IMG/VR virus record: IMGVR_UViG_3300045988_095445
Direction: 5' to 3' (one strand)
Source of the DNA: a virus
DNA: 15,026 nt
Shown here piece after piece: positions 1 to 14,454 of the stretch. Under the pieces are notes generated by a model, which did no database searches, was not told the DNA's origin, and saw only the letters and a program-made list of their open reading frames with translations. The position numbers and the translations under genes are program-made. Numbering within the stretch: position 1 is the first letter of the stretch; each line of letters opens with the position of its first letter.

Positions 1-162
1 ATTTCATGGTATTCTGACAATACTATGATTTCATGGTATTCTGACAATACTATGAAATTAATTGAAAAGGATTTTCATGGTATTCTGACAATACCATGTC
101 ATAGTATTCTGACAATACCATGAAAGTAAATAAAAATCCATTTCATGGTATTCTGACAATAC
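1..162. repeat. Five direct copies of a 22-27 bp iteron/operator-like unit (TTTCATGGTATTCTGACAATAC[C/T]ATG). Each unit is an imperfect palindrome (CATGGTA...TACCATG). Copies 1 and 2 are perfectly tandem.
   Basis: Read directly: 1-27, 28-54, 73-98, 99-122 (variant TCATAGTATTCTGACAATACCATG), 141-162. Confidence 0.8.
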
Positions 163-181
163 AACAAATATAACATATATT

Positions 182-3560: not shown

Positions 3561-3760
3561 ATTTTACCACAAGCAAAAGCAGATTGCAAGCGTCAAATTG
3601 CACAAAAATTGGAATTTTGGGAGAAAGTTTTTGTGCAGAATTTTGCACAAAACGGGGCTGAAATTTTTGTGCAACATTTACAAAGAAAAACTCGGGTCGC
3701 GCCGTTCCTGCGCGACCCGCTCAAATTTTGTATAAAAAAAGAAGGGCCGAAGCCCTTCTT
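3561..3760 (-). promoter_or_regulatory. Intergenic module A. On the minus strand it runs: terminator 1 (3741-3758), GC-hairpin terminator 2 (3693-3719), palindrome TTGTGCA-N6-TGCACAA (3631-3650) plus half-sites TTGCACAA (3598) and TTGTGCAA (3666), then promoter TTGCAA-17-TGgTAAAAT (3561-3589).
   Basis: Read directly. Terminator 1 (AAAAGAAGGGCCGAAGCCCTTCTT) is identical to 6509-6531. Confidence 0.7.
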
Positions 3761-5211: not shown

Positions 5212-5380
5212 ATAATAATACCATACTTTTGGGAGAATTGCAAGATGGCAAATTGCACAACTTTTTGCCACCAAAATTGTGCAACATCTACAAAGAAAAA
5301 AATTCGGCGCGCCGCGTGCGTCAGCGCGCCGCTCAAATGACAATAAAAAAATACCCCTCTCATTATTGAGAGGGGTATTT
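5212..5380 (-). promoter_or_regulatory. Intergenic module B: terminator hairpin 5353-5378, GC-hairpin terminator 5305-5331 (identical to 6461-6487), TTGCACAA (5253) and TTGTGCAA (5278), promoter TTGCAA-17-TGgTATTAT (5215-5243).
   Basis: Read directly. Confidence 0.7.
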
Positions 5381-6095: not shown

Positions 6096-6344
6096 TCAAT
6101 CTCCTTTTGTTTTATTATACCACTTGTTGCCTACCTTGTCAACAAGTTTTTCAAAAAAAGTTTTACGCCGACATACCTTATAAGGTATTGACATATAATC
6201 TACATAGATCAGAGGATCTTGTAAAAGCACAGTCTGTATATAAATCTCATAATTAACCGGGGTAGTAGTATGCCCGAATTGTCTATGATAAATTTCAGCT
6301 ACGGTTAAGTATTCGTTAGGCTGAATAAACTTTGAAGGTTTCAT
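6096..6344 (-). CDS. Hypothetical protein, 82 aa. Its 3' end encodes the promoter and SD for the HAD gene.
   Basis: Strong SD GGAGGGG. TGA stop 6 nt before the HAD ATG. Confidence 0.55.
   Translation of the reverse strand: MKPSKFIQPNEYLTVAEIYHRQFGHTTTPVNYEIYIQTVLLQDPLIYVDYMSIPYKVCRRKTFFEKLVDKVGNKWYNKTKGD
6114..6142 (-). promoter_or_regulatory. Consensus promoter TTGACA-17-TGgTATAAT embedded inside the coding sequence of gene 6096-6344. It drives the HAD gene.
   Basis: -35 at 6137-6142, -10 at 6114-6119, spacer 17. Confidence 0.55.
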
Positions 6345-6371: not shown

Positions 6372-6531
6372 ATAATACCATAATTTAAGGATAATTGCAA
6401 GATGGCAAATTGCACAAGATTTCAAGACAAAAATTGTGTAGAACTTACAAATAAGAAAACTCGGCGCGCCGCGTGCGTCAGCGCGCCGTCGAATTTTTAG
6501 TATATAAAAAAGAAGGGCCGAAGCCCTTCTT
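6372..6531 (-). promoter_or_regulatory. Intergenic module C: terminator 6512-6529 (same as 3741-3758), GC hairpin 6461-6487 (same as 5305-5331), TTGCACAA (6409), TTGTGTAG (6433), promoter TTGCAA-17-TGgTATTAT (6372-6400).
   Basis: Read directly. Confidence 0.7.
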
Positions 6532-6990
6532 TTATCTTTCAGCCATATTTGAAAAATACCTTGCGACTAGTTTAACCATTTCATGAATAGATTCATCATT
6601 GTGCAAATTTTTGTAACAAATGAATCCAATTTGTCCACCATCAGAAAAAATGGGAGTAATAAACATAGATTTCCACGCTGTCGCAGGTTGGCTGATATTA
6701 CTCCATTCATCTGGTGGTATAGAAATTTTGAAAGAACTAGGCCCGCTTAAAAGTTTATCTGAATCGAAGATTGCCGCGGAAATGTGATTAACAGAAAGGG
6801 CATTTCGCATTTCGTGGGCATGGTCAACGAAAAAAGATAGTGGAGAATATTTCTTGAAGGCTATACAGTCGCCATCAAGAAAAATTTCCATAGGGTCGCC
6901 TTCTCTAATTCGCATACTCCTACGAATTTCTCTAGGAATAACAATACGCCCTAGGTCATCAATATGTCGAACAATACCAACAGCTCTCAT
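6532..6990 (-). CDS. spoVT: SpoVT/AbrB-family regulator. It has an N-terminal swapped-hairpin DNA-binding domain and a SpoVT-like (GAF-type) C-terminal domain, 152 aa.
   Basis: GIVRHIDDLGRIVIPREIRRSMRIREGDPMEIFLDGDCIAFKKYSPLS is near-identical in pattern to B. subtilis SpoVT (GIVRRIDDLGRVVIPKEIRRTLRIREGDPLEIFVD...KKYSPIS). The C-terminal ...PIFSDGGQIGFICY...LVARYFSNMAE resembles SpoVT ...PIVANGDPIGAVVIF...FLARQME. Confidence 0.85.
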   Translation of the reverse strand: MRAVGIVRHIDDLGRIVIPREIRRSMRIREGDPMEIFLDGDCIAFKKYSPLSFFVDHAHEMRNALSVNHISAAIFDSDKLLSGPSSFKISIPPDEWSNISQPATAWKSMFITPIFSDGGQIGFICYKNLHNDESIHEMVKLVARYFSNMAER

Positions 6991-8321: not shown

Positions 8322-8505
8322 AGTATAACAGATAGCAGATAGAAAGTCAAGCAATTTTGGGAAAAAATCTTCCGTCAGATTGCACAACAATTCGAGCCTA
8401 AAATTGTGCAAATTGCCTCTTGATAAAAAATTCCGGCCGCGCCTGTGGTGCACGGCCGGGCGAACGAATAAAAAAAAAGAACCTCCTGAATTTCAGGAGG
8501 TCATT
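8322..8505 (-). promoter_or_regulatory. Intergenic module D: terminator 8481-8504 (ACCTCCTGA-ATT-TCAGGAGGT), GC hairpin 8433-8459, TTGTGCAA (8404), TTGCACAA (8380), promoter TTGACT-17-TGtTATACT (8322-8350).
   Basis: Read directly. Confidence 0.7.
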
Positions 8506-8543: not shown

Positions 8544-8777
8544 TCAATCGGCATTTTCAACAATCTTTAATCCGTTTGCTTGGATAATTTTCATAGCTTC
8601 TTCAAGCGAGGAATCAACCGATCCGCAGTCGATACAGATATATTTTCTGCCATCTTTTACCATAGTAGTAAAATAGTATTCTTGGCCAGAAACAAGGCCC
8701 ATCTACTCTCGCAGTCTTACTGGAATCATGATACGCCCACTTGAATCTAATTTCCTTGAGAAAGTAGTTTCTTGCAT
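8544..8777 (-). pseudogene. AbrB-fold (swapped-hairpin) gene with one in-frame TAG at 8703-8705. It is either an amber-recoded gene (one 77-residue protein) or a nonsense pseudogene.
   Basis: MQETTFSRKLDSSGRIMIPVRLRE-[TAG]-MGLVSGQEYYFTTMVKDGRKYICID... aligns colinearly with AbrB RKVDELGRVVIPIELRR-T-LGIAEKDALEIYVDD, with the TAG occupying one residue position. There is no SD upstream of the ATG. Stop is TGA at 8544. Confidence 0.55.
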
Positions 8778-9014
8778 TTTGATAAATAAATTCTAGTGAC
8801 CTAGGCTCGTGCGAAAAACGACTCCATCACGGGAATCGCCGATTTAGAACAATCGGAAGGAACATTTACCACTCGCAAGGCATTTTCTGGCAGAACTGAG
8901 ACATAGGGCAATTTTACAAGAATCCTAGTTCAAACAGAACTCTAAAATAACCGCGAGTGCTTTCAGCACTTCTAAGGTCATTAGAAAAACTCCTTTCTTT
9001 ATTTTTCTATAATT

Positions 9015-9043
9015 ATTATAATATATTTTTTTGAAAAAATCAA
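9015..9043 (-). promoter_or_regulatory. Promoter TTGATT-17-TATAAT, followed by SD AAAGGAG and an 18-aa ORF (8923-8979) containing hairpin GAAGTGC-TGAAA-GCACTTC, then about 200 nt untranslated.
   Basis: -35 at 9038-9043, -10 at 9015-9020. Leader-peptide-like arrangement upstream of the AbrB-like gene. Confidence 0.45.
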
Positions 9044-9182
9044 TAGGGCCGGCATTACGCCAGCCCTAATCTCTGTAACCAAACCAGATGGTATTTACCA
9101 ATGTGAAGTAGAACTGTGCCATATCCCTTATTTGTCCAAACAGTGGAACCGATAGGATATGTATGCGGTAAACGCTCAATAC

Positions 9183-9754: not shown

Positions 9755-9955
9755 TAATAACACATGGCAAAAGGAATGTCAAGTAATTTCGGGAGAAAAA
9801 CTTTCGTCGAATTGCACAGACTTTCGGTCATATAATTGTTGAAATTGCCGAATAAATAAAAATTCGGGCCGCGGCGCACGCTGGCGGCCCGGCGAAAAGT
9901 CAATATGGAAAAGTGCATAAAAATGACTGGCAATCTTTGTGTAGATTGCCAGTCA
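9755..9955 (-). promoter_or_regulatory. Intergenic module E: terminator 9925-9953 (11-bp stem), GC hairpin 9865-9891, TTGCACAG (9812), promoter TTGACA-17-TGtTATTAT (9755-9783).
   Basis: Read directly. Confidence 0.7.
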
Positions 9956-9967
9956 AGTATTATTCCT

Positions 9968-10201
9968 TTACAGCTCCATGGTTTCCATGAGATAGCCCGT
10001 GCCCATCGGCACCTCCCGCAGATTGCTGGGACTTATACGCAACTTATATTTCCTATTGATTTTATTCGCCGCACTTGTCTTATCTCTCGCTTGGACAATT
10101 ACTGGTATATGGAGTTTATTTAGAGTGGGCTTATTAAGACTGAAATATCCCATCTCTCTGCGCTTGCGGCCCATGGCGTCGATATAAGTCCCTCTATACA
10201 T
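9968..10201 (-). CDS. Hypothetical basic protein, 77 aa.
   Basis: SD GGAGG 5 nt before the ATG. TAA stop followed by a terminator. Confidence 0.55.
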   Translation of the reverse strand: MYRGTYIDAMGRKRREMGYFSLNKPTLNKLHIPVIVQARDKTSAANKINRKYKLRISPSNLREVPMGTGYLMETMEL

Positions 10202-11504: not shown

Positions 11505-11570
11505 CTCTTTTGCACAAAATAAATAACATCTTGTTGTGCAGTTTGCACAAATCCTTTACGCGCGCGTATT
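11505..11570 (-). promoter_or_regulatory. Partial module F: TTGCACAA (11510), palindrome TTGTGCA-GTT-TGCACAA (11534-11550) and short GC palindrome TACGCGCGCGTA (11557-11568).
   Basis: Read directly. Confidence 0.55.
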
Positions 11571-12188: not shown

Positions 12189-12640
12189 TTAAAACCTCCA
12201 AGAAAATTCTAAAATTGCGGGAATTGCAAAATAGATATTTGGAATATTATAATTGCGGGCTGCGTTTACGAGCAAGGTGGCGACCGTTGATGGATCTTGC
12301 ATAAAAACACCACAGCCCCAGGCTCCCGCGATTAAATTTTCCACTCCCTTAACCTCGGCAATTCTCTCTTCCATTATCCTATTGTTTAGAGAAAGAGGAA
12401 CTTTACATCAGCTAATTTTATACTATCGTCTTTTTCAAAGACTATAGATAGCTCTATCAAGATATAGGGCTCGATTCAGTCTCTGCCATAAGTATCATCA
12501 AAAGCAAGAAGAATAGGGTAAAGGTTGCTTTCGTGACACAATGCCTCTTCTACCACCTGGATGTATAATTTAAGATCGCAGTCTTGCTCCGATCGGTTAA
12601 ACCGAATAGACAGGATACGCTATCTTGGTCTTTAAGATAA
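12189..12640 (-). pseudogene. Decayed PARG-like macrodomain (DUF2263/TIGR02452-type) gene. Three collinear fragments are broken by TGA, TAA and a frameshift. The track ORF 12189-12374 is the C-terminal fragment.
   Basis: Fragment ...YIQVVEEALCHESNLYPILLAFDDTYGRD*(TGA) resembles the QEE/LCR-S-LY region. Then IEPYILIELSIVFEKDDSIKL* follows, then (frameshift) MEERIAEVKGVENLIAGAWGCGVF... with the GAWGCGVF diphosphate-loop motif. Family assignment is from memory of the motifs. Confidence 0.45.
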
Positions 12641-12894: not shown

Positions 12895-13248
12895 TTACTC
12901 ATATTTACACCCATTCATTCTACAGTCTATTGTGCATTGCCCTGACGCTCCTTCACAAGGAATAGCATCAGGATAGTATTCAAAATAAGACGAGGTTAAT
13001 AGAACTTCATATCCAAGTTCCCGCAGTATTCTTTCTGCGACATATCTATCTCTTAATTTAATCCATTCTTCTCTATTTACTTTTGTTTCTTCATATATTT
13101 TTCGAGATTCTTCCATATCTATTGTTATGATACCATCGGTGTTAGTTTTAAATACTGAAGGACTTTGTGTATGATAAAATTTTCGAAAGGGATTGTTAAT
13201 ATGAAGAACTTCTTCAGCATATTTGTCAAAATCTCCCGAAAATTTCAT
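12895..13248 (-). CDS. Hypothetical Cys-rich protein, 117 aa (C-terminal CEGASGQCTIDCRMNGC). The true start is ATG 13248, overlapping FolD's TAA (TAATG).
   Basis: The track ORF 12895-13341 is N-terminally over-extended into FolD. It is translationally coupled to FolD. Confidence 0.55.
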   Translation of the reverse strand: MKFSGDFDKYAEEVLHINNPFRKFYHTQSPSVFKTNTDGIITIDMEESRKIYEETKVNREEWIKLRDRYVAERILRELGYEVLLTSSYFEYYPDAIPCEGASGQCTIDCRMNGCKYE

Positions 13249-14033
13249 TATCTTTGCGCCTGTTTCGCTAACTATAAACAATTTTTCATCAACCCCAATC
13301 TTGTTAATAGACCTACTCCTCCGGGGACAGGAGTTGACCATACATTATTTCTTTTTGCGATTTCATCAATTTCTACAAAATCACCAAGAATAATTCCTGC
13401 TTCATTTCTGCGAATACCAACATCTATAACAATAGCGTTAGGACAGGCTTCTCTTGTTAAGCTAAATTTTCCTACCGCAGAGACAATTAAATCTGCTTGC
13501 CTTGTTAAATAGAGTTTTGTATTTATATCTGTTTTGCTATGACATACTGATACGGTCATATTTCTATCCAGTAGAGCTTTAGCCATTGGCTTTCCTACAA
13601 TATCGCTTCTTCCCAAAACAACAGCAGATTTACCTTCGTAGTTAAAACCACATTCATCCAAATAGTCTATAATTCCTCTTACTGTTGCTGGAGTAATATT
13701 GCTCATAGGATTTAAACCATCCGCATCTTTAGAGATAGGTATTTGACTATAATTGAAATCAATTCCATTTGCTACTGGCATTTGAACTATTACCGCATCC
13801 CAGTCTTTCGCATGGCCTAAGAGTAATCTTAACTCTACTGAACTATTCGCTCTAAACACTTCTGCTTCCCAACCAAGAGCATTAAAGTCTTTTATTTTAT
13901 TACGAATATAAATTTGATTTGCGGGATCCTAGGCTGTTGCGTCGATAATCATGAGTGATGGAACATTACCACTAATCTCCCGCAATTTGTTTACCTATTG
14001 TTGAAAATATTCTTTTATATTAATCTATTGCAT
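13248..14033 (-). CDS. folD: FolD (bifunctional methylene-THF dehydrogenase/cyclohydrolase), 261 aa when TAG is read as sense. It has four in-frame TAG codons (14025, 13995, 13929, 13272) and a TAA stop at 13248.
   Basis: The track fragment 13272-13859 shows GKSAVVLGRSDIVGKPMA...VIDVGIRRNE...TPVPGGVGLLT, the canonical FolD C-domain. Upstream in-frame translation continues colinear with the FolD N-terminus (...NVPSLMIIDATA[TAG]DPANQIYIRNKIKDFNALGW) back to ATG 14033 with SD GGAGG. Only TAGs interrupt the frame. Confidence 0.8.
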
Positions 14034-14352
14034 CTGGATCAAGCCTCCAAGGATCACTAGTATCGTAATCAATCATTTCATAGAAAGATATTTCATTTTC
14101 ATTAACTTCTAATACCTAGTGAGGAATACACTATACTTCATAATCAAAATCTTTATTAATATGGTAAGAAGTATATATATGAATAGCAATAGGTCTAGGA
14201 TCATTAACTCCCTAAATATCCCATAAACTTATTGCTTTATTTTGGAAGATTTCCTAAGCATACTATGGAGATATAGCAATACTGATTATTAAGATATTAA
14301 AATAATACTATGCTTTTTCCGGTAAATCTAAATATGGTTCGTCAAAGAACAT
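14020..14352 (-). CDS. Hypothetical protein, 110 aa, with six in-frame TAGs and a TAA stop. It is the first gene of the leftward operon.
   Basis: ATG 14352 with SD AGGAG. 111 codons contain six TAGs and no TAA/TGA. The translation looks protein-like (..DPRPIAIHIYTSYHINKDFDYEV..). Its end overlaps the FolD start. Confidence 0.5.
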
Positions 14353-14389
14353 TGGCAAACAAATCTCCTATCTTATTTTTTATAATTAT

Positions 14390-14454
14390 ATTATAGCATT
14401 TTTAAATAAATTAATCAAATAAGATTTGACAATCTAGTTTTTTTTTGTTATTAT
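14390..14454. promoter_or_regulatory. Divergent back-to-back consensus promoters: minus-strand TTGATT-17-TGcTATAAT (14390-14418) and plus-strand TTGACA-17-TATTAT (14426-14454).
   Basis: Spacers counted directly. The plus -10 abuts ATG 14455, so the real start of the plus gene is ATG 14479. Confidence 0.7.

What the first reader, a model, noticed from the sequence alone, without database searches (positions are those of the whole stretch)
8544..8980. AbrB-fold gene with an in-frame TAG at a conserved residue position, no SD, preceded by a promoter + 18-aa leader ORF + 200-nt UTR
The swapped-hairpin domain is intact across the TAG, and exactly one residue is replaced. This could be a nonsense pseudogene of a second SpoVT/AbrB paralog. 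It could also be a deliberately amber-gated regulator, made only when the suppressor is present.

The long structured leader (hairpin GAAGTGC-TGAAA-GCACTTC inside an 18-aa ORF) suggests attenuation-type control.
Basis: partly seen in the sequence, partly recalled or inferred. Interest (0 to 1): 0.55.

Follow-up and report, generated by a model that had tools for sequence, protein, structure and literature searches.

The report
Amber-coded AbrB-like gene in recoded phage
The "stop codon" inside this small AbrB-type regulator gene is not a defect: the window comes from a gut phage that reads TAG as glutamine, so the protein can be completed only once the phage's own amber-suppressor tRNA is present.

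Summary
The in-frame TAG is real: minus strand, CDS 8777-8544, codon 25 = 8705-8703. The AbrB assignment holds.

The gene is not a pseudogene. Thirty IMG/VR loci and seven further contigs carry intact orthologs. dN/dS is about 0.04-0.05 on both sides of the TAG. The TAG sits at a nearly invariant Gln that is CAA or CAG in many relatives. Other lineages carry their single TAG at Gln codon 32 or 40 instead.

The window belongs to a TAG=Gln (code 15) phage:
- three genes at 13.2-15 kb hold 17 in-frame TAGs;
- none of 24 complete genes ends in TAG;
- window TAGs align to Gln in 9 of 18 cases;
- close relatives encode a tRNA(CUA) at the far end of a tRNA cluster that starts about 18 kb downstream.

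The cassette is the only TAG-bearing unit in an otherwise TAG-free, early-type block: 8 TAG / 48 Gln codons against 0 / 709 in 19 neighbouring families.

The "18-aa leader ORF" is really a conserved 38-codon Cys-rich gene that reads through its own TAG; the window's copy is frameshifted. Two other hairpins upstream of the gene covary.

Deliberate amber gating is plausible but unproven.

The parts
9044..9068 (-). Intrinsic-terminator-like hairpin that ends the upstream gene and insulates the cassette
   Evidence: 11-bp stem plus T-run. A terminator-like hairpin occupies the same position in the related loci.
9015..9043 (-). Cassette promoter, TTGATT-17-TATAAT (sigma70-like)
   Evidence: The TTGnnT / A+T-rich spacer / TATAAT layout is conserved in all lineages. 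It resembles the promoter of the TAG-rich operon at 14418-14390.
8844..8981 (-). Small Cys-rich ORF with a strong SD (GGAG 8993-8990), ATG 8981 and an in-frame TAG at codon 19 (8927-8925). Relatives have 38-39 codons (MTLEVLKALAVILEFCLNqDSCKNCPMAQFCQKMPCEW) ending at the TAA that corresponds to window 8868-8866. The window's copy is frameshifted by a 1-nt deletion in A-run 8915-8912 and runs to the TAA at 8846-8844.
   Evidence: L006 and L009 differ mostly at synonymous sites. The TAG aligns to CAA (Gln) in L009/L010 and in the second clade of related contigs (62-64% AbrB identity). Other lineages carry TAG at codons 7, 14, 29 or 32.
8839..8856 (-). Hairpin H1 (CCGATT / AATCGG)
   Evidence: in the MFE and the centroid; all 4 scored pairs show changes on both sides across 11 lineages.
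8814..8838 (-). Hairpin H2 (CGATTCC / GGAGTCG) followed by TTTTT; terminator- or attenuator-like
   Evidence: 7 bp, 96% of cells paired, 3 pairs with changes on both sides. The simple terminator scan did not call it.
8791..8804 (-). Conserved motif CTAGGTCAcTAGAA, 13-27 nt upstream of the AbrB start. It is complementary to the small-ORF start region TTCTAATGACCT (8986-8975).
   Evidence: present once, at the same place, in 29 of 30 loci. The long-range pairing appears in the MFE of the 246-nt leader (z = -2.6). Covariation is inconclusive.
8544..8777 (-). AbrB/MazE-fold gene, 77 codons, no SD, TGA stop
   Evidence: Orthologs are listed. dN/dS is 0.04-0.05 in both halves.
8703..8705 (-). In-frame TAG, codon 25, read as Gln
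   Evidence: CAA or CAG sits at this codon in L001-5, L009-24 and L027-30. TAG sits there in L006-8, L025-26, L098-104 and the window. Q25 is nearly invariant.
8433..8502 (-). Two tandem intrinsic terminators that close the cassette
   Evidence: In most other lineages a 45-codon gene follows here instead.

Best explanation
The window is part of a roughly 100-160 kb gut phage that has reassigned TAG from stop to glutamine (genetic code 15). The feature is a small, self-contained two-gene cassette inside the phage's early-type block. That block is TAG-free and rich in strong host-type promoters.

The cassette order is: own promoter, then a 38-codon Cys-rich ORF with a strong SD, then two conserved hairpins (the second followed by a U-run), then a conserved 14-nt motif, then an SD-less 77-codon AbrB/MazE-fold protein, then terminators.

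The TAG at codon 25 is an ordinary Gln sense codon for this phage. It is decoded by a phage-encoded tRNA(CUA), whose gene lies at the far end of a large tRNA cluster that starts about 18 kb downstream of the AbrB-like gene on the same strand.

The consequence is that the full-length protein can accumulate only after the code switch. Before that, ribosomes stop after 24 residues, which is half a swapped-hairpin domain and presumably inert.

Shown here:
- TAG/Gln interchange at this and other codons;
- purifying selection across the TAG;
- recoding in the neighbouring late-type genes;
- a suppressor tRNA in close relatives;
- TAG exclusion from the neighbouring gene families;
- the conserved cassette anatomy.

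Inferred, not shown:
- that the protein binds DNA as a dimer, as AbrB does;
- when the cassette is transcribed;
- that the suppressor is charged with Gln.
For: - **Recoding in the window.** The 21 other minus-strand genes between 717 and 13341 have 0 in-frame TAG. The FolD gene (13248-14033), the gene at 14020-14358 and the plus-strand gene from 14479 have 4, 6 and 7. None of the 24 complete genes ends in TAG.
- **FolD.** Its Pfam domains match across the TAGs.
- **Amino acid encoded.** Window TAGs align to Gln in 9 of 18 positions in the weakly recoded relative L009.
- **Focal gene orthologs.** TAG is at codon 25 in some lineages, 32 in others and 40 in others. It is always at a position that is Gln elsewhere, and no gene has more than one.
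- **Selection.** Window vs L001 gives dN/dS 0.04 for codons 1-24 and 0.05 for codons 26-52. Window vs L006 gives 11 synonymous and 0 non-synonymous differences.
- **Neighbour census**, unique ortholog sequences over 30 loci: the AbrB-like gene has 8 TAG / 48 CAA+CAG. Nineteen neighbouring families have 0 / 709. Fisher p = 5e-10, not corrected for shared ancestry.
- **Suppressor.** A tRNA(CUA) was found on the same contigs as L002, L003, L004, L007, L008, L009, L011, L014, L017, L018, L020 and L028. It folds as a cloverleaf with U1.U72, G73 and an encoded CCA.
- **Fold.**
- **Published framework.** Early genes stay standard-code compatible and late genes are recoded (bioRxiv 10.1101/2021.08.26.457843; PMC10607447).
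Against: - No tRNA gene lies in the window itself. The suppressor is shown only in relatives, although many of their genes are 97-100% identical to the window's.
- The amino acid inserted at TAG is inferred from alignments and from tRNA identity features. It has not been measured.
- The AbrB assignment rests on sub-threshold Pfam scores, a pLDDT-68 monomer model and moderate E-values.
- The time of expression is unknown.
Confidence: 0.85

Rival explanations
1. Selected amber gate (timer). The cassette is transcribed early by host RNA polymerase. At least one TAG is kept by selection so that the regulator is made only when the suppressor tRNA has accumulated. This couples a transcriptional decision, such as early shut-off, to the code switch. 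The TAG in the upstream small ORF adds a second layer through polarity or the H2 terminator.
For: - The cassette has a host-type sigma70 promoter and sits in the TAG-free early block.
- It is the only unit there that repeatedly carries TAG: AbrB codons 25, 32 and 40, and small-ORF codons 7, 14, 19, 29 and 32.
- In the two clades that have a Gln codon at 25, a TAG sits at 32 or 40 instead. No gene has more than one.
- The window allele is a recombinant patch that swaps the TAG32 haplotype for the TAG25 haplotype and so keeps exactly one TAG.
- The suppressor gene lies at the far end of the downstream tRNA cluster.
Against: - Five or six recoded lineages (L011-13, L019/23, L021, L030) and L009/10 have no TAG in the gene. 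Four of these lineages have none in either ORF.
- Codon 25 moves among TAG, CAG and CAA, as expected for neutral synonymous drift once TAG is tolerated.
- The promoter resembles that of the TAG-rich operon at 14418 rather than the consensus early promoters. The cassette may simply be transcribed late.
- The enrichment statistics are not phylogenetically corrected.
Confidence: 0.3
2. Nonsense pseudogene of a second AbrB/SpoVT paralog, in plain decay.
For: Under the standard code the ORF is cut after 24 codons. The cassette's small ORF is frameshifted in the window.
Against: - Intact orthologs occur in 37 loci, with no frameshift and no TAA or TGA stop.
- dN/dS is about 0.04-0.05 on both sides of the TAG.
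- The TAG aligns to Gln codons, and the genome uses TAG as sense in FolD and other genes.
Confidence: 0.02
3. Two products by termination and restart. Without suppression, ribosomes stop at TAG25 and restart at the adjacent ATG26. This would yield a 52-residue C-terminal protein with its own function. With suppression, the full-length protein is made.
For: - TAG is directly followed by ATG in the window (GAG TAG ATG).
- Standard-code gene callers predict the 52-53-residue ORF in several lineages (P0032, P0038, P0042-44).
Against: - Residue 26 is L or V in some homologs.
- TAG32 and TAG40 are not followed by start codons.
- The predicted restart product lacks half of the swapped-hairpin domain.
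Confidence: 0.05
4. MazE-type antitoxin of a toxin-antitoxin pair rather than a transcription regulator.
For: The best PHROG family (4681) is annotated as 'antitoxin', and there are weak Pfam MazE/MraZ hits.
Against: - No toxin-like partner is present. The window has only terminators downstream.
- Other lineages have an unrelated 45-codon ORF with its own promoter.
- The best solved relatives are AbrB and Abh.
Confidence: 0.08

Closest known systems
TAG-to-Gln (code 15) recoded gut phages: crAss-like, Lak, the 'gemstone' clades and phAss-1 (bioRxiv 10.1101/2021.08.26.457843; PMC10607447; PMC9523058)
   Same: - In-frame TAG at Gln positions in many genes.
- A phage-encoded tRNA(CUA) within a large tRNA cluster.
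- A TAG-free block of early-type genes.
- TAG patterns that differ between orthologs of close relatives.
   Different: - The phage group is only distantly related to phAss-1 (30% identity on one protein). It has no close GenBank record.
- The TAG here is in a small putative regulator inside the standard-code block, not in structural or lysis genes.
B. subtilis AbrB / Abh / SpoVT N-terminal swapped-hairpin DNA-binding domain
   Same: The motif R8-K-[LV]-D-x-x-G-R15-[IV]-x-I-P-x-x-L-R23 aligns position for position. The top structural matches are to these proteins.
   Different: - The C-terminal half (GRKYICIDCG...LEEAM.IIQ..G.K) has no detected relative.
- AbrB R24 is Glu or Asp here, and AbrB T25 is the Gln encoded by TAG.
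- DNA binding has not been tested.
Leader-peptide transcription attenuators (trp, his type)
   Same: A short upstream ORF with a strong SD is followed by a stem-loop plus U-run in front of the regulated gene.
   Different: - The upstream ORF is conserved as a protein, with mostly synonymous changes.
- No alternative antiterminator pairing was found.
- H1 and H2 are adjacent and cannot compete with each other.
Laboratory amber mutants grown on suppressor hosts; natural readthrough proteins such as Qbeta A1
   Same: Completion of the protein depends on a suppressor tRNA that reads a stop codon.
   Different: Here the suppressor is supplied by the phage itself, and TAG is used genome-wide as a regular codon.

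Membership tests
Code-15 (TAG=Gln) recoded phage | Many conserved genes carry in-frame TAG and are intact only if TAG is read as sense | tested here: met
   Three window genes hold 17 TAGs. FolD Pfam domains match across the TAGs. Coverage by ORFs of at least 100 codons rises from 0.34-0.67 to 0.58-0.79 in the loci when TAG is read as sense.
Code-15 (TAG=Gln) recoded phage | TAG positions align to Gln in orthologs | tested here: met
   Nine of 18 window TAGs align to Q in L009. Focal codons 25, 32 and 40 and small-ORF codons 19, 29 and 32 alternate with CAA or CAG.
Code-15 (TAG=Gln) recoded phage | TAG is not used as a terminator | tested here: met
   The 24 complete genes in the hand-curated list of 25 end in TAA (18) or TGA (6).
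Code-15 (TAG=Gln) recoded phage | A suppressor tRNA with anticodon CUA is encoded by the phage | tested here: met
   It is not in the window. It was found on the contigs of 12 relatives that carry the cassette and folds as a cloverleaf. Charging with Gln cannot be tested with these tools.
AbrB/MazE/SpoVT swapped-hairpin superfamily | N-terminal domain sequence signature | tested here: met
   Family profile vs PDB: AbrB E=4.2e-5, Abh 2.8e-4, SpoVT 0.025. PHROG 4681 E=1.7e-7. Pfam MraZ scores 21.4 bits (cut-off 23) and MazE 19 bits (cut-off 24.7), both below cut-off.
AbrB/MazE/SpoVT swapped-hairpin superfamily | Predicted fold matches solved members | tested here: inconclusive
   The AF2 monomer has pLDDT 68 and pTM 0.39. 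Foldseek top hits are 1yfb, 2k1n, 2ro5 and 2w1t, but with E 7e-3 to 0.1 and TM 0.4-0.5. The fold is an obligate dimer and was not modelled as one.
AbrB/MazE/SpoVT swapped-hairpin superfamily | Dimerisation and DNA binding | not testable with these tools
   Needs biochemistry.
Leader-peptide transcription attenuator | Mutually exclusive terminator and antiterminator structures controlled by ribosome position | tested here: not met
H1 and H2 both form in the MFE and the centroid. No competing pairing was seen.
Leader-peptide transcription attenuator | Terminator hairpin plus U-run between the leader ORF and the gene | tested here: inconclusive
   H2 is 7 bp plus TTTTT and covaries. The U-run is weaker in the second clade of related contigs (AATTTT). 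The simple terminator scan did not call it.
Type II toxin-antitoxin (MazE-like antitoxin) | Adjacent cognate toxin gene | tested here: not met
   Terminators lie downstream in the window. An unrelated 45-codon ORF with its own promoter lies there elsewhere.
Nonsense pseudogene | Further disabling lesions and relaxed constraint in orthologs | tested here: not met
   There are no frameshifts or other stops. dN/dS is 0.04-0.05.

The most novel reading that the evidence does not exclude
The cassette is a code-switch sensor. It is transcribed from a host-type promoter from the start of infection. Both of its ORFs stay untranslatable until the phage's tRNA(CUA) accumulates. The AbrB-like protein then reprograms transcription, for example by binding the TTGCACAA-N16-TTGTGCAA palindromes that sit in the early terminator-promoter modules. 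In this reading a change of genetic code is read out directly by a transcription factor, and selection keeps one TAG in the gene, relocating it when it is lost.
Probability: 0.2. Interest if true: 0.75.

Novelty: new member of a known kind. Interest (0 to 1): 0.42.

Why it matters
Stop-codon recoding in phages is thought to time late gene expression, but concrete regulatory links between the code switch and the transcription programme are lacking.

This cassette is a compact, testable candidate. It is a putative DNA-binding protein, preceded by a small Cys-rich protein, and the synthesis of both depends on the suppressor tRNA. It is embedded in an otherwise standard-code early region, and the TAG position varies naturally (codon 25, 32, 40 or none) across lineages.

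On the practical side, the case shows that standard-code annotation splits or drops such genes. The public protein collection holds the 52-53-residue fragments.

Tried and rejected
- **Megablast of the whole window against GenBank phages:** no match.
- **tblastn of the AbrB-like protein against the same collection:** no match.
- **Rfam on the window:** nothing.
- **tRNA scans of the window and of the 30 cassette loci:** nothing. The suppressor was reached only after walking about 40 kb downstream in three steps.
- **A degenerate pattern for the suppressor tRNA:** abandoned, because suppressors of related phages are too dissimilar.
- **Greedy gene calling with TAG as sense:** produced spurious opposite-strand ORFs. 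It was replaced by a curated gene list plus an ortholog census.
- **RNAalifold on a MAFFT alignment of the spacer:** missed the hairpins because of loop-length differences. I scored hand-registered arms instead, which biases the count towards pairing.
- **Long-range helix between the small-ORF start and the motif before the AbrB start:** it is predicted in the MFE, but covariation is no better than shuffles. It is kept only as a lead.
- **N-terminal extension of the AbrB ORF, as in database proteins P0005, P0006 and P0012:** rejected. There is no in-frame start in the window, and relatives in the second clade of contigs have an in-frame TAA there.
- **First structure job:** The 96%-identical P0001 was used instead.

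Full report
**1. What is at the coordinates**

The feature lies on the minus strand. An ORF starts at ATG 8777-8775 and ends at TGA 8546-8544, 77 codons in all. It has a single in-frame TAG at codon 25 (8705-8703). Its sequence is MQETTFSRKLDSSGRIMIPVRLRE[TAG]MGLVSGQEYYF…

The N-terminal part matches the AbrB/MazE/SpoVT swapped-hairpin family across the TAG.
- Pfam MraZ (21.4 bits) and MazE (19 bits) are just under their cut-offs.
- PHROG 4681 gives E=1.7e-7 over residues 1-58.
- A profile of 26 homologs hits B. subtilis AbrB (E=4.2e-5), Abh and SpoVT in the PDB, position for position. The TAG codon aligns to AbrB T25, right after the R23/R24 pair.
- An AlphaFold model (pLDDT 68) has AbrB, SpoVT and MazE as its best Foldseek matches, at weak E-values.

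No Shine-Dalgarno sequence precedes the ATG, whereas most neighbouring genes have a GGAG-type one.

The unit is bounded on both sides.
- An upstream terminator lies at 9068-9044.
- A sigma70-like promoter, TTGATT-17-TATAAT, lies at 9043-9015.
- Two downstream terminators lie at 8502-8480 and 8459-8433.

**2. The window is from a TAG-recoded phage**

In a hand-curated list of 25 genes, the 21 other minus-strand genes between 717 and 13341 have no in-frame TAG. Three genes do: a FolD gene (13248-14033), the gene at 14020-14358 and the plus-strand gene from 14479 carry 4, 6 and 7. In those three, TAG outnumbers CAA+CAG by 17 to 13. None of the 24 complete genes ends in TAG.

Further support:
- The FolD Pfam domains align across the TAGs.
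- Related IMG/VR contigs of 96-164 kb were fetched with the AbrB-like protein.
- In the least recoded relative, L009, the window's 18 TAG positions align to Gln nine times. The rest align to E, K, G, D or T.
- In most loci, coverage by long ORFs rises sharply when TAG is read as sense.

**3. The suppressor tRNA**

No tRNA lies in the window or in the 20-kb loci around the cassette.

The distant GenBank relative phAss-1 (NCBI 'Caudoviricetes code 15 clade'; PMC10607447) places its tRNA cluster downstream of the small-gene block. Guided by that layout, I walked downstream along the same contigs.
- A cluster of 25-36 tRNA genes, with a tmRNA in some contigs, begins about 18 kb downstream of the AbrB-like gene on the same strand.
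- It contains a tRNA with anticodon CUA on the contigs of L002, L003, L004, L007, L008, L009, L011, L014, L017, L018, L020 and L028.
- On the contig of L008 the tRNA(CUA) lies about 37 kb downstream of the gene, by contig coordinates.
- The tRNA folds as a cloverleaf with a CUCUAAA anticodon loop, an unpaired U1.U72, G73 and an encoded CCA. From what is known of E. coli GlnRS identity elements, this is compatible with charging by Gln, but that was not tested here.

**4. The gene is functional, and the TAG is a Gln codon**

Across 30 IMG/VR loci and seven contigs from other collections there is no frameshift and no TAA or TGA stop in the gene.

Codon 25 is a nearly invariant Gln in the protein family. 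At the DNA level its state varies.
- TAG: window, L006-8, L025-26, and three more diverged lineages (L098-100, L101, L102-104).
- CAA or CAG: all other loci.

The other positions are as follows.
- L001-5 have CAA at codon 25 and TAG at codon 32, where the window has CAA.
- A large part of a second clade (62-64% identity) has TAG at codon 40, which is Gln in its sisters.
- L009-13, L019, L021, L023 and L030 have no TAG.
- No gene has more than one.

Selection is strongly purifying on both sides of the TAG.
- Window vs L001: dN/dS 0.04 for codons 1-24 and 0.05 for codons 26-52.
- Window vs L006: 11 synonymous and 0 non-synonymous differences.

This excludes the pseudogene reading.

The window allele is a mosaic. 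Codons 7-32 differ at 24 nucleotides from L001 and L004, which are otherwise nearly identical across this gene, and at only 6 from L006. TAG25 and TAG32 are therefore alternative haplotypes of one short patch.

**5. The cassette stands out from its neighbours**

The census uses orthologs of the window's genes over the 30 loci, counting unique sequences.

| Gene family | TAG | CAA+CAG |
|---|---|---|
| 19 neighbouring families | 0 | 709 |
| AbrB-like gene | 8 | 48 |
| Gene 6096-6344 | 3 | 9 |
| Gene 12895-13341 | 1 | 113 |

Fisher's test for the AbrB-like gene against the 19 families gives p = 5e-10, not corrected for shared ancestry.

The surrounding block has eight near-perfect TTGACA-17-TGnTAYAAT promoters and many terminators. 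This is the look of an early region driven by host RNA polymerase.

The cassette's promoter differs from these. It resembles the promoter of the TAG-rich operon at 14418-14390 and that of gene 717-1172. The time of transcription therefore cannot be read from the sequence.

**6. The 'leader'**

The 18-codon ORF is an artefact of reading TAG as stop. In relatives the ORF is 38-39 codons long: MTLEVLKALAVILEFC[LM]NQDSCKNCPMAQFCQKMPCEW.
- It has a strong SD.
- It is conserved in every lineage, with mostly synonymous differences.
- It has its own TAGs at Gln positions: codon 19 in the window's clade, and codons 32, 29, 7 and 14 elsewhere.
- The window's copy lacks one A in the run 8915-8912 and so shifts frame.
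- Other contigs carry different indels, which may be real or may be assembly errors.

The 88-nt spacer does hold two adjacent hairpins that are present in the MFE and the centroid.
- H1 lies at 8856-8839.
- H2 lies at 8838-8819 and is followed by TTTTT.
- In 11 lineages, 96.7% of cells are paired, and seven pairs show changes on both sides. None of 500 shuffles reached these values. The arms were registered by hand, which favours pairing.

A 14-nt motif, CTAGGTCAcTAGAA (8804-8791), is conserved 13-27 nt before the start codon in 29 of 30 loci. It is complementary to the start region of the small ORF. The long-range helix is predicted (z = -2.6), but covariation does not support it.

No antiterminator alternative was found, so classical attenuation is not supported. 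H2 could still act as a partial terminator.

**7. How it most likely works**

TAG is a regular Gln codon for this phage, so the AbrB-like protein and the small protein can be completed only when the phage tRNA(CUA) is available. The cassette therefore behaves as a post-switch unit inside a standard-code block (confidence 0.85).

It remains open whether the TAG is kept on purpose as a timer (about 0.3) or is merely tolerated because the cassette is not needed early.
- For a timer: the host-type promoter, the recurrence of TAG at several positions in both ORFs, and the pattern of one TAG per gene with relocation.
- Against: several recoded lineages have no TAG, and codon 25 drifts among the three codons.

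A toxin-antitoxin role is unlikely because there is no partner gene. A restart product from ATG26 is unlikely because the feature is not conserved.

**8. Relation to what is known**

Stop-codon recoding with early genes in the standard code and late genes recoded is published (bioRxiv 10.1101/2021.08.26.457843; PMC9523058; PMC10607447). This finding is a new instance of that pattern, in a phage group with no close GenBank record.

What is specific here is that the recoded gene is a putative transcription regulator with a recoded upstream small ORF and a conserved structured spacer. I rate it as a new member of a known kind, of moderate interest. It would rise to high interest if the code-switch-sensor reading were confirmed.

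Noticed in passing
window 1-166: Five copies of a 27-nt unit (ATTTCATGGTATTCTGACAATACTATG) in direct and inverted arrangement. They look like iterons, possibly an origin, a packaging site or a protein-binding array at the end of the early block.
   Followed up: no
window 3643-3674, 5253-5284, 8380-8411 (exact); 6410-6441, 9812-9843, 11510-11550 (degenerate): The palindrome TTGCACAA-N16-TTGTGCAA occurs three times exactly, with 0 expected by chance. It always lies between a GC-rich terminator and the next promoter. One copy sits directly downstream of the focal cassette, and the palindrome is also seen in L021. It is a candidate operator for an unknown regulator.
   Followed up: partly
window, minus strand: 11382, 9782, 7848, 7530, 6142, 5049, 3489, 3317: Eight promoters match 11-12 of 12 consensus positions and have an extended -10. 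Each is paired with a family of near-identical GC-rich terminators. This gives a modular early region of many one- or two-gene units.
   Followed up: partly
window 8844-8981; L001/L002, L005, L012/L013, L016, L103/L104: The conserved 38-codon Cys-rich ORF is disrupted by different small indels in many independent contigs, mostly at short homopolymers. Even so, it is under amino-acid-level conservation across all lineages. This could be recurrent loss, phase variation or assembly error.
   Followed up: partly
window 8682-8759 (AbrB codons 7-32): A hyper-divergent patch: 24 differences in 78 nt against L001/L004, almost all synonymous, in an otherwise near-identical background. The patch matches the L006 clade, so this is a short recombination tract that carries the TAG25 allele.
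   Followed up: yes
L051 1652-1742, L089 19029-19119 and equivalents: In the second clade and in L009, the amber-suppressor tRNA is 91 nt long with a 16-nt extra arm. The window's clade has a 75-76-nt version. All have U1.U72 and G73.
   Followed up: partly
L047 6063-6378, L052, L054, L056, L059, L089; L051-L062 near 9902-9975: The phage tRNA cluster includes a tmRNA gene (tag DN[DN]YF[DE]..AA). It also includes tRNAs that ARAGORN calls with irregular anticodons (tgtt, taaa, tt).
   Followed up: no
window 13248-14033 and 12189-12374: A phage FolD (methylene-THF dehydrogenase/cyclohydrolase) gene has four in-frame TAGs in the window, but most of its 22 unique ortholog sequences across the loci have none. 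A 61-codon ORF looks like the C-terminal piece of a macro domain, with no obvious N-terminal part.
   Followed up: no
window 6532-6990: A second, TAG-free AbrB/SpoVT paralog (152 aa) has a clear Pfam MazE hit and PHROG 4681 E=2e-20. It is conserved about 1.2 kb downstream of the cassette in other lineages.
   Followed up: partly
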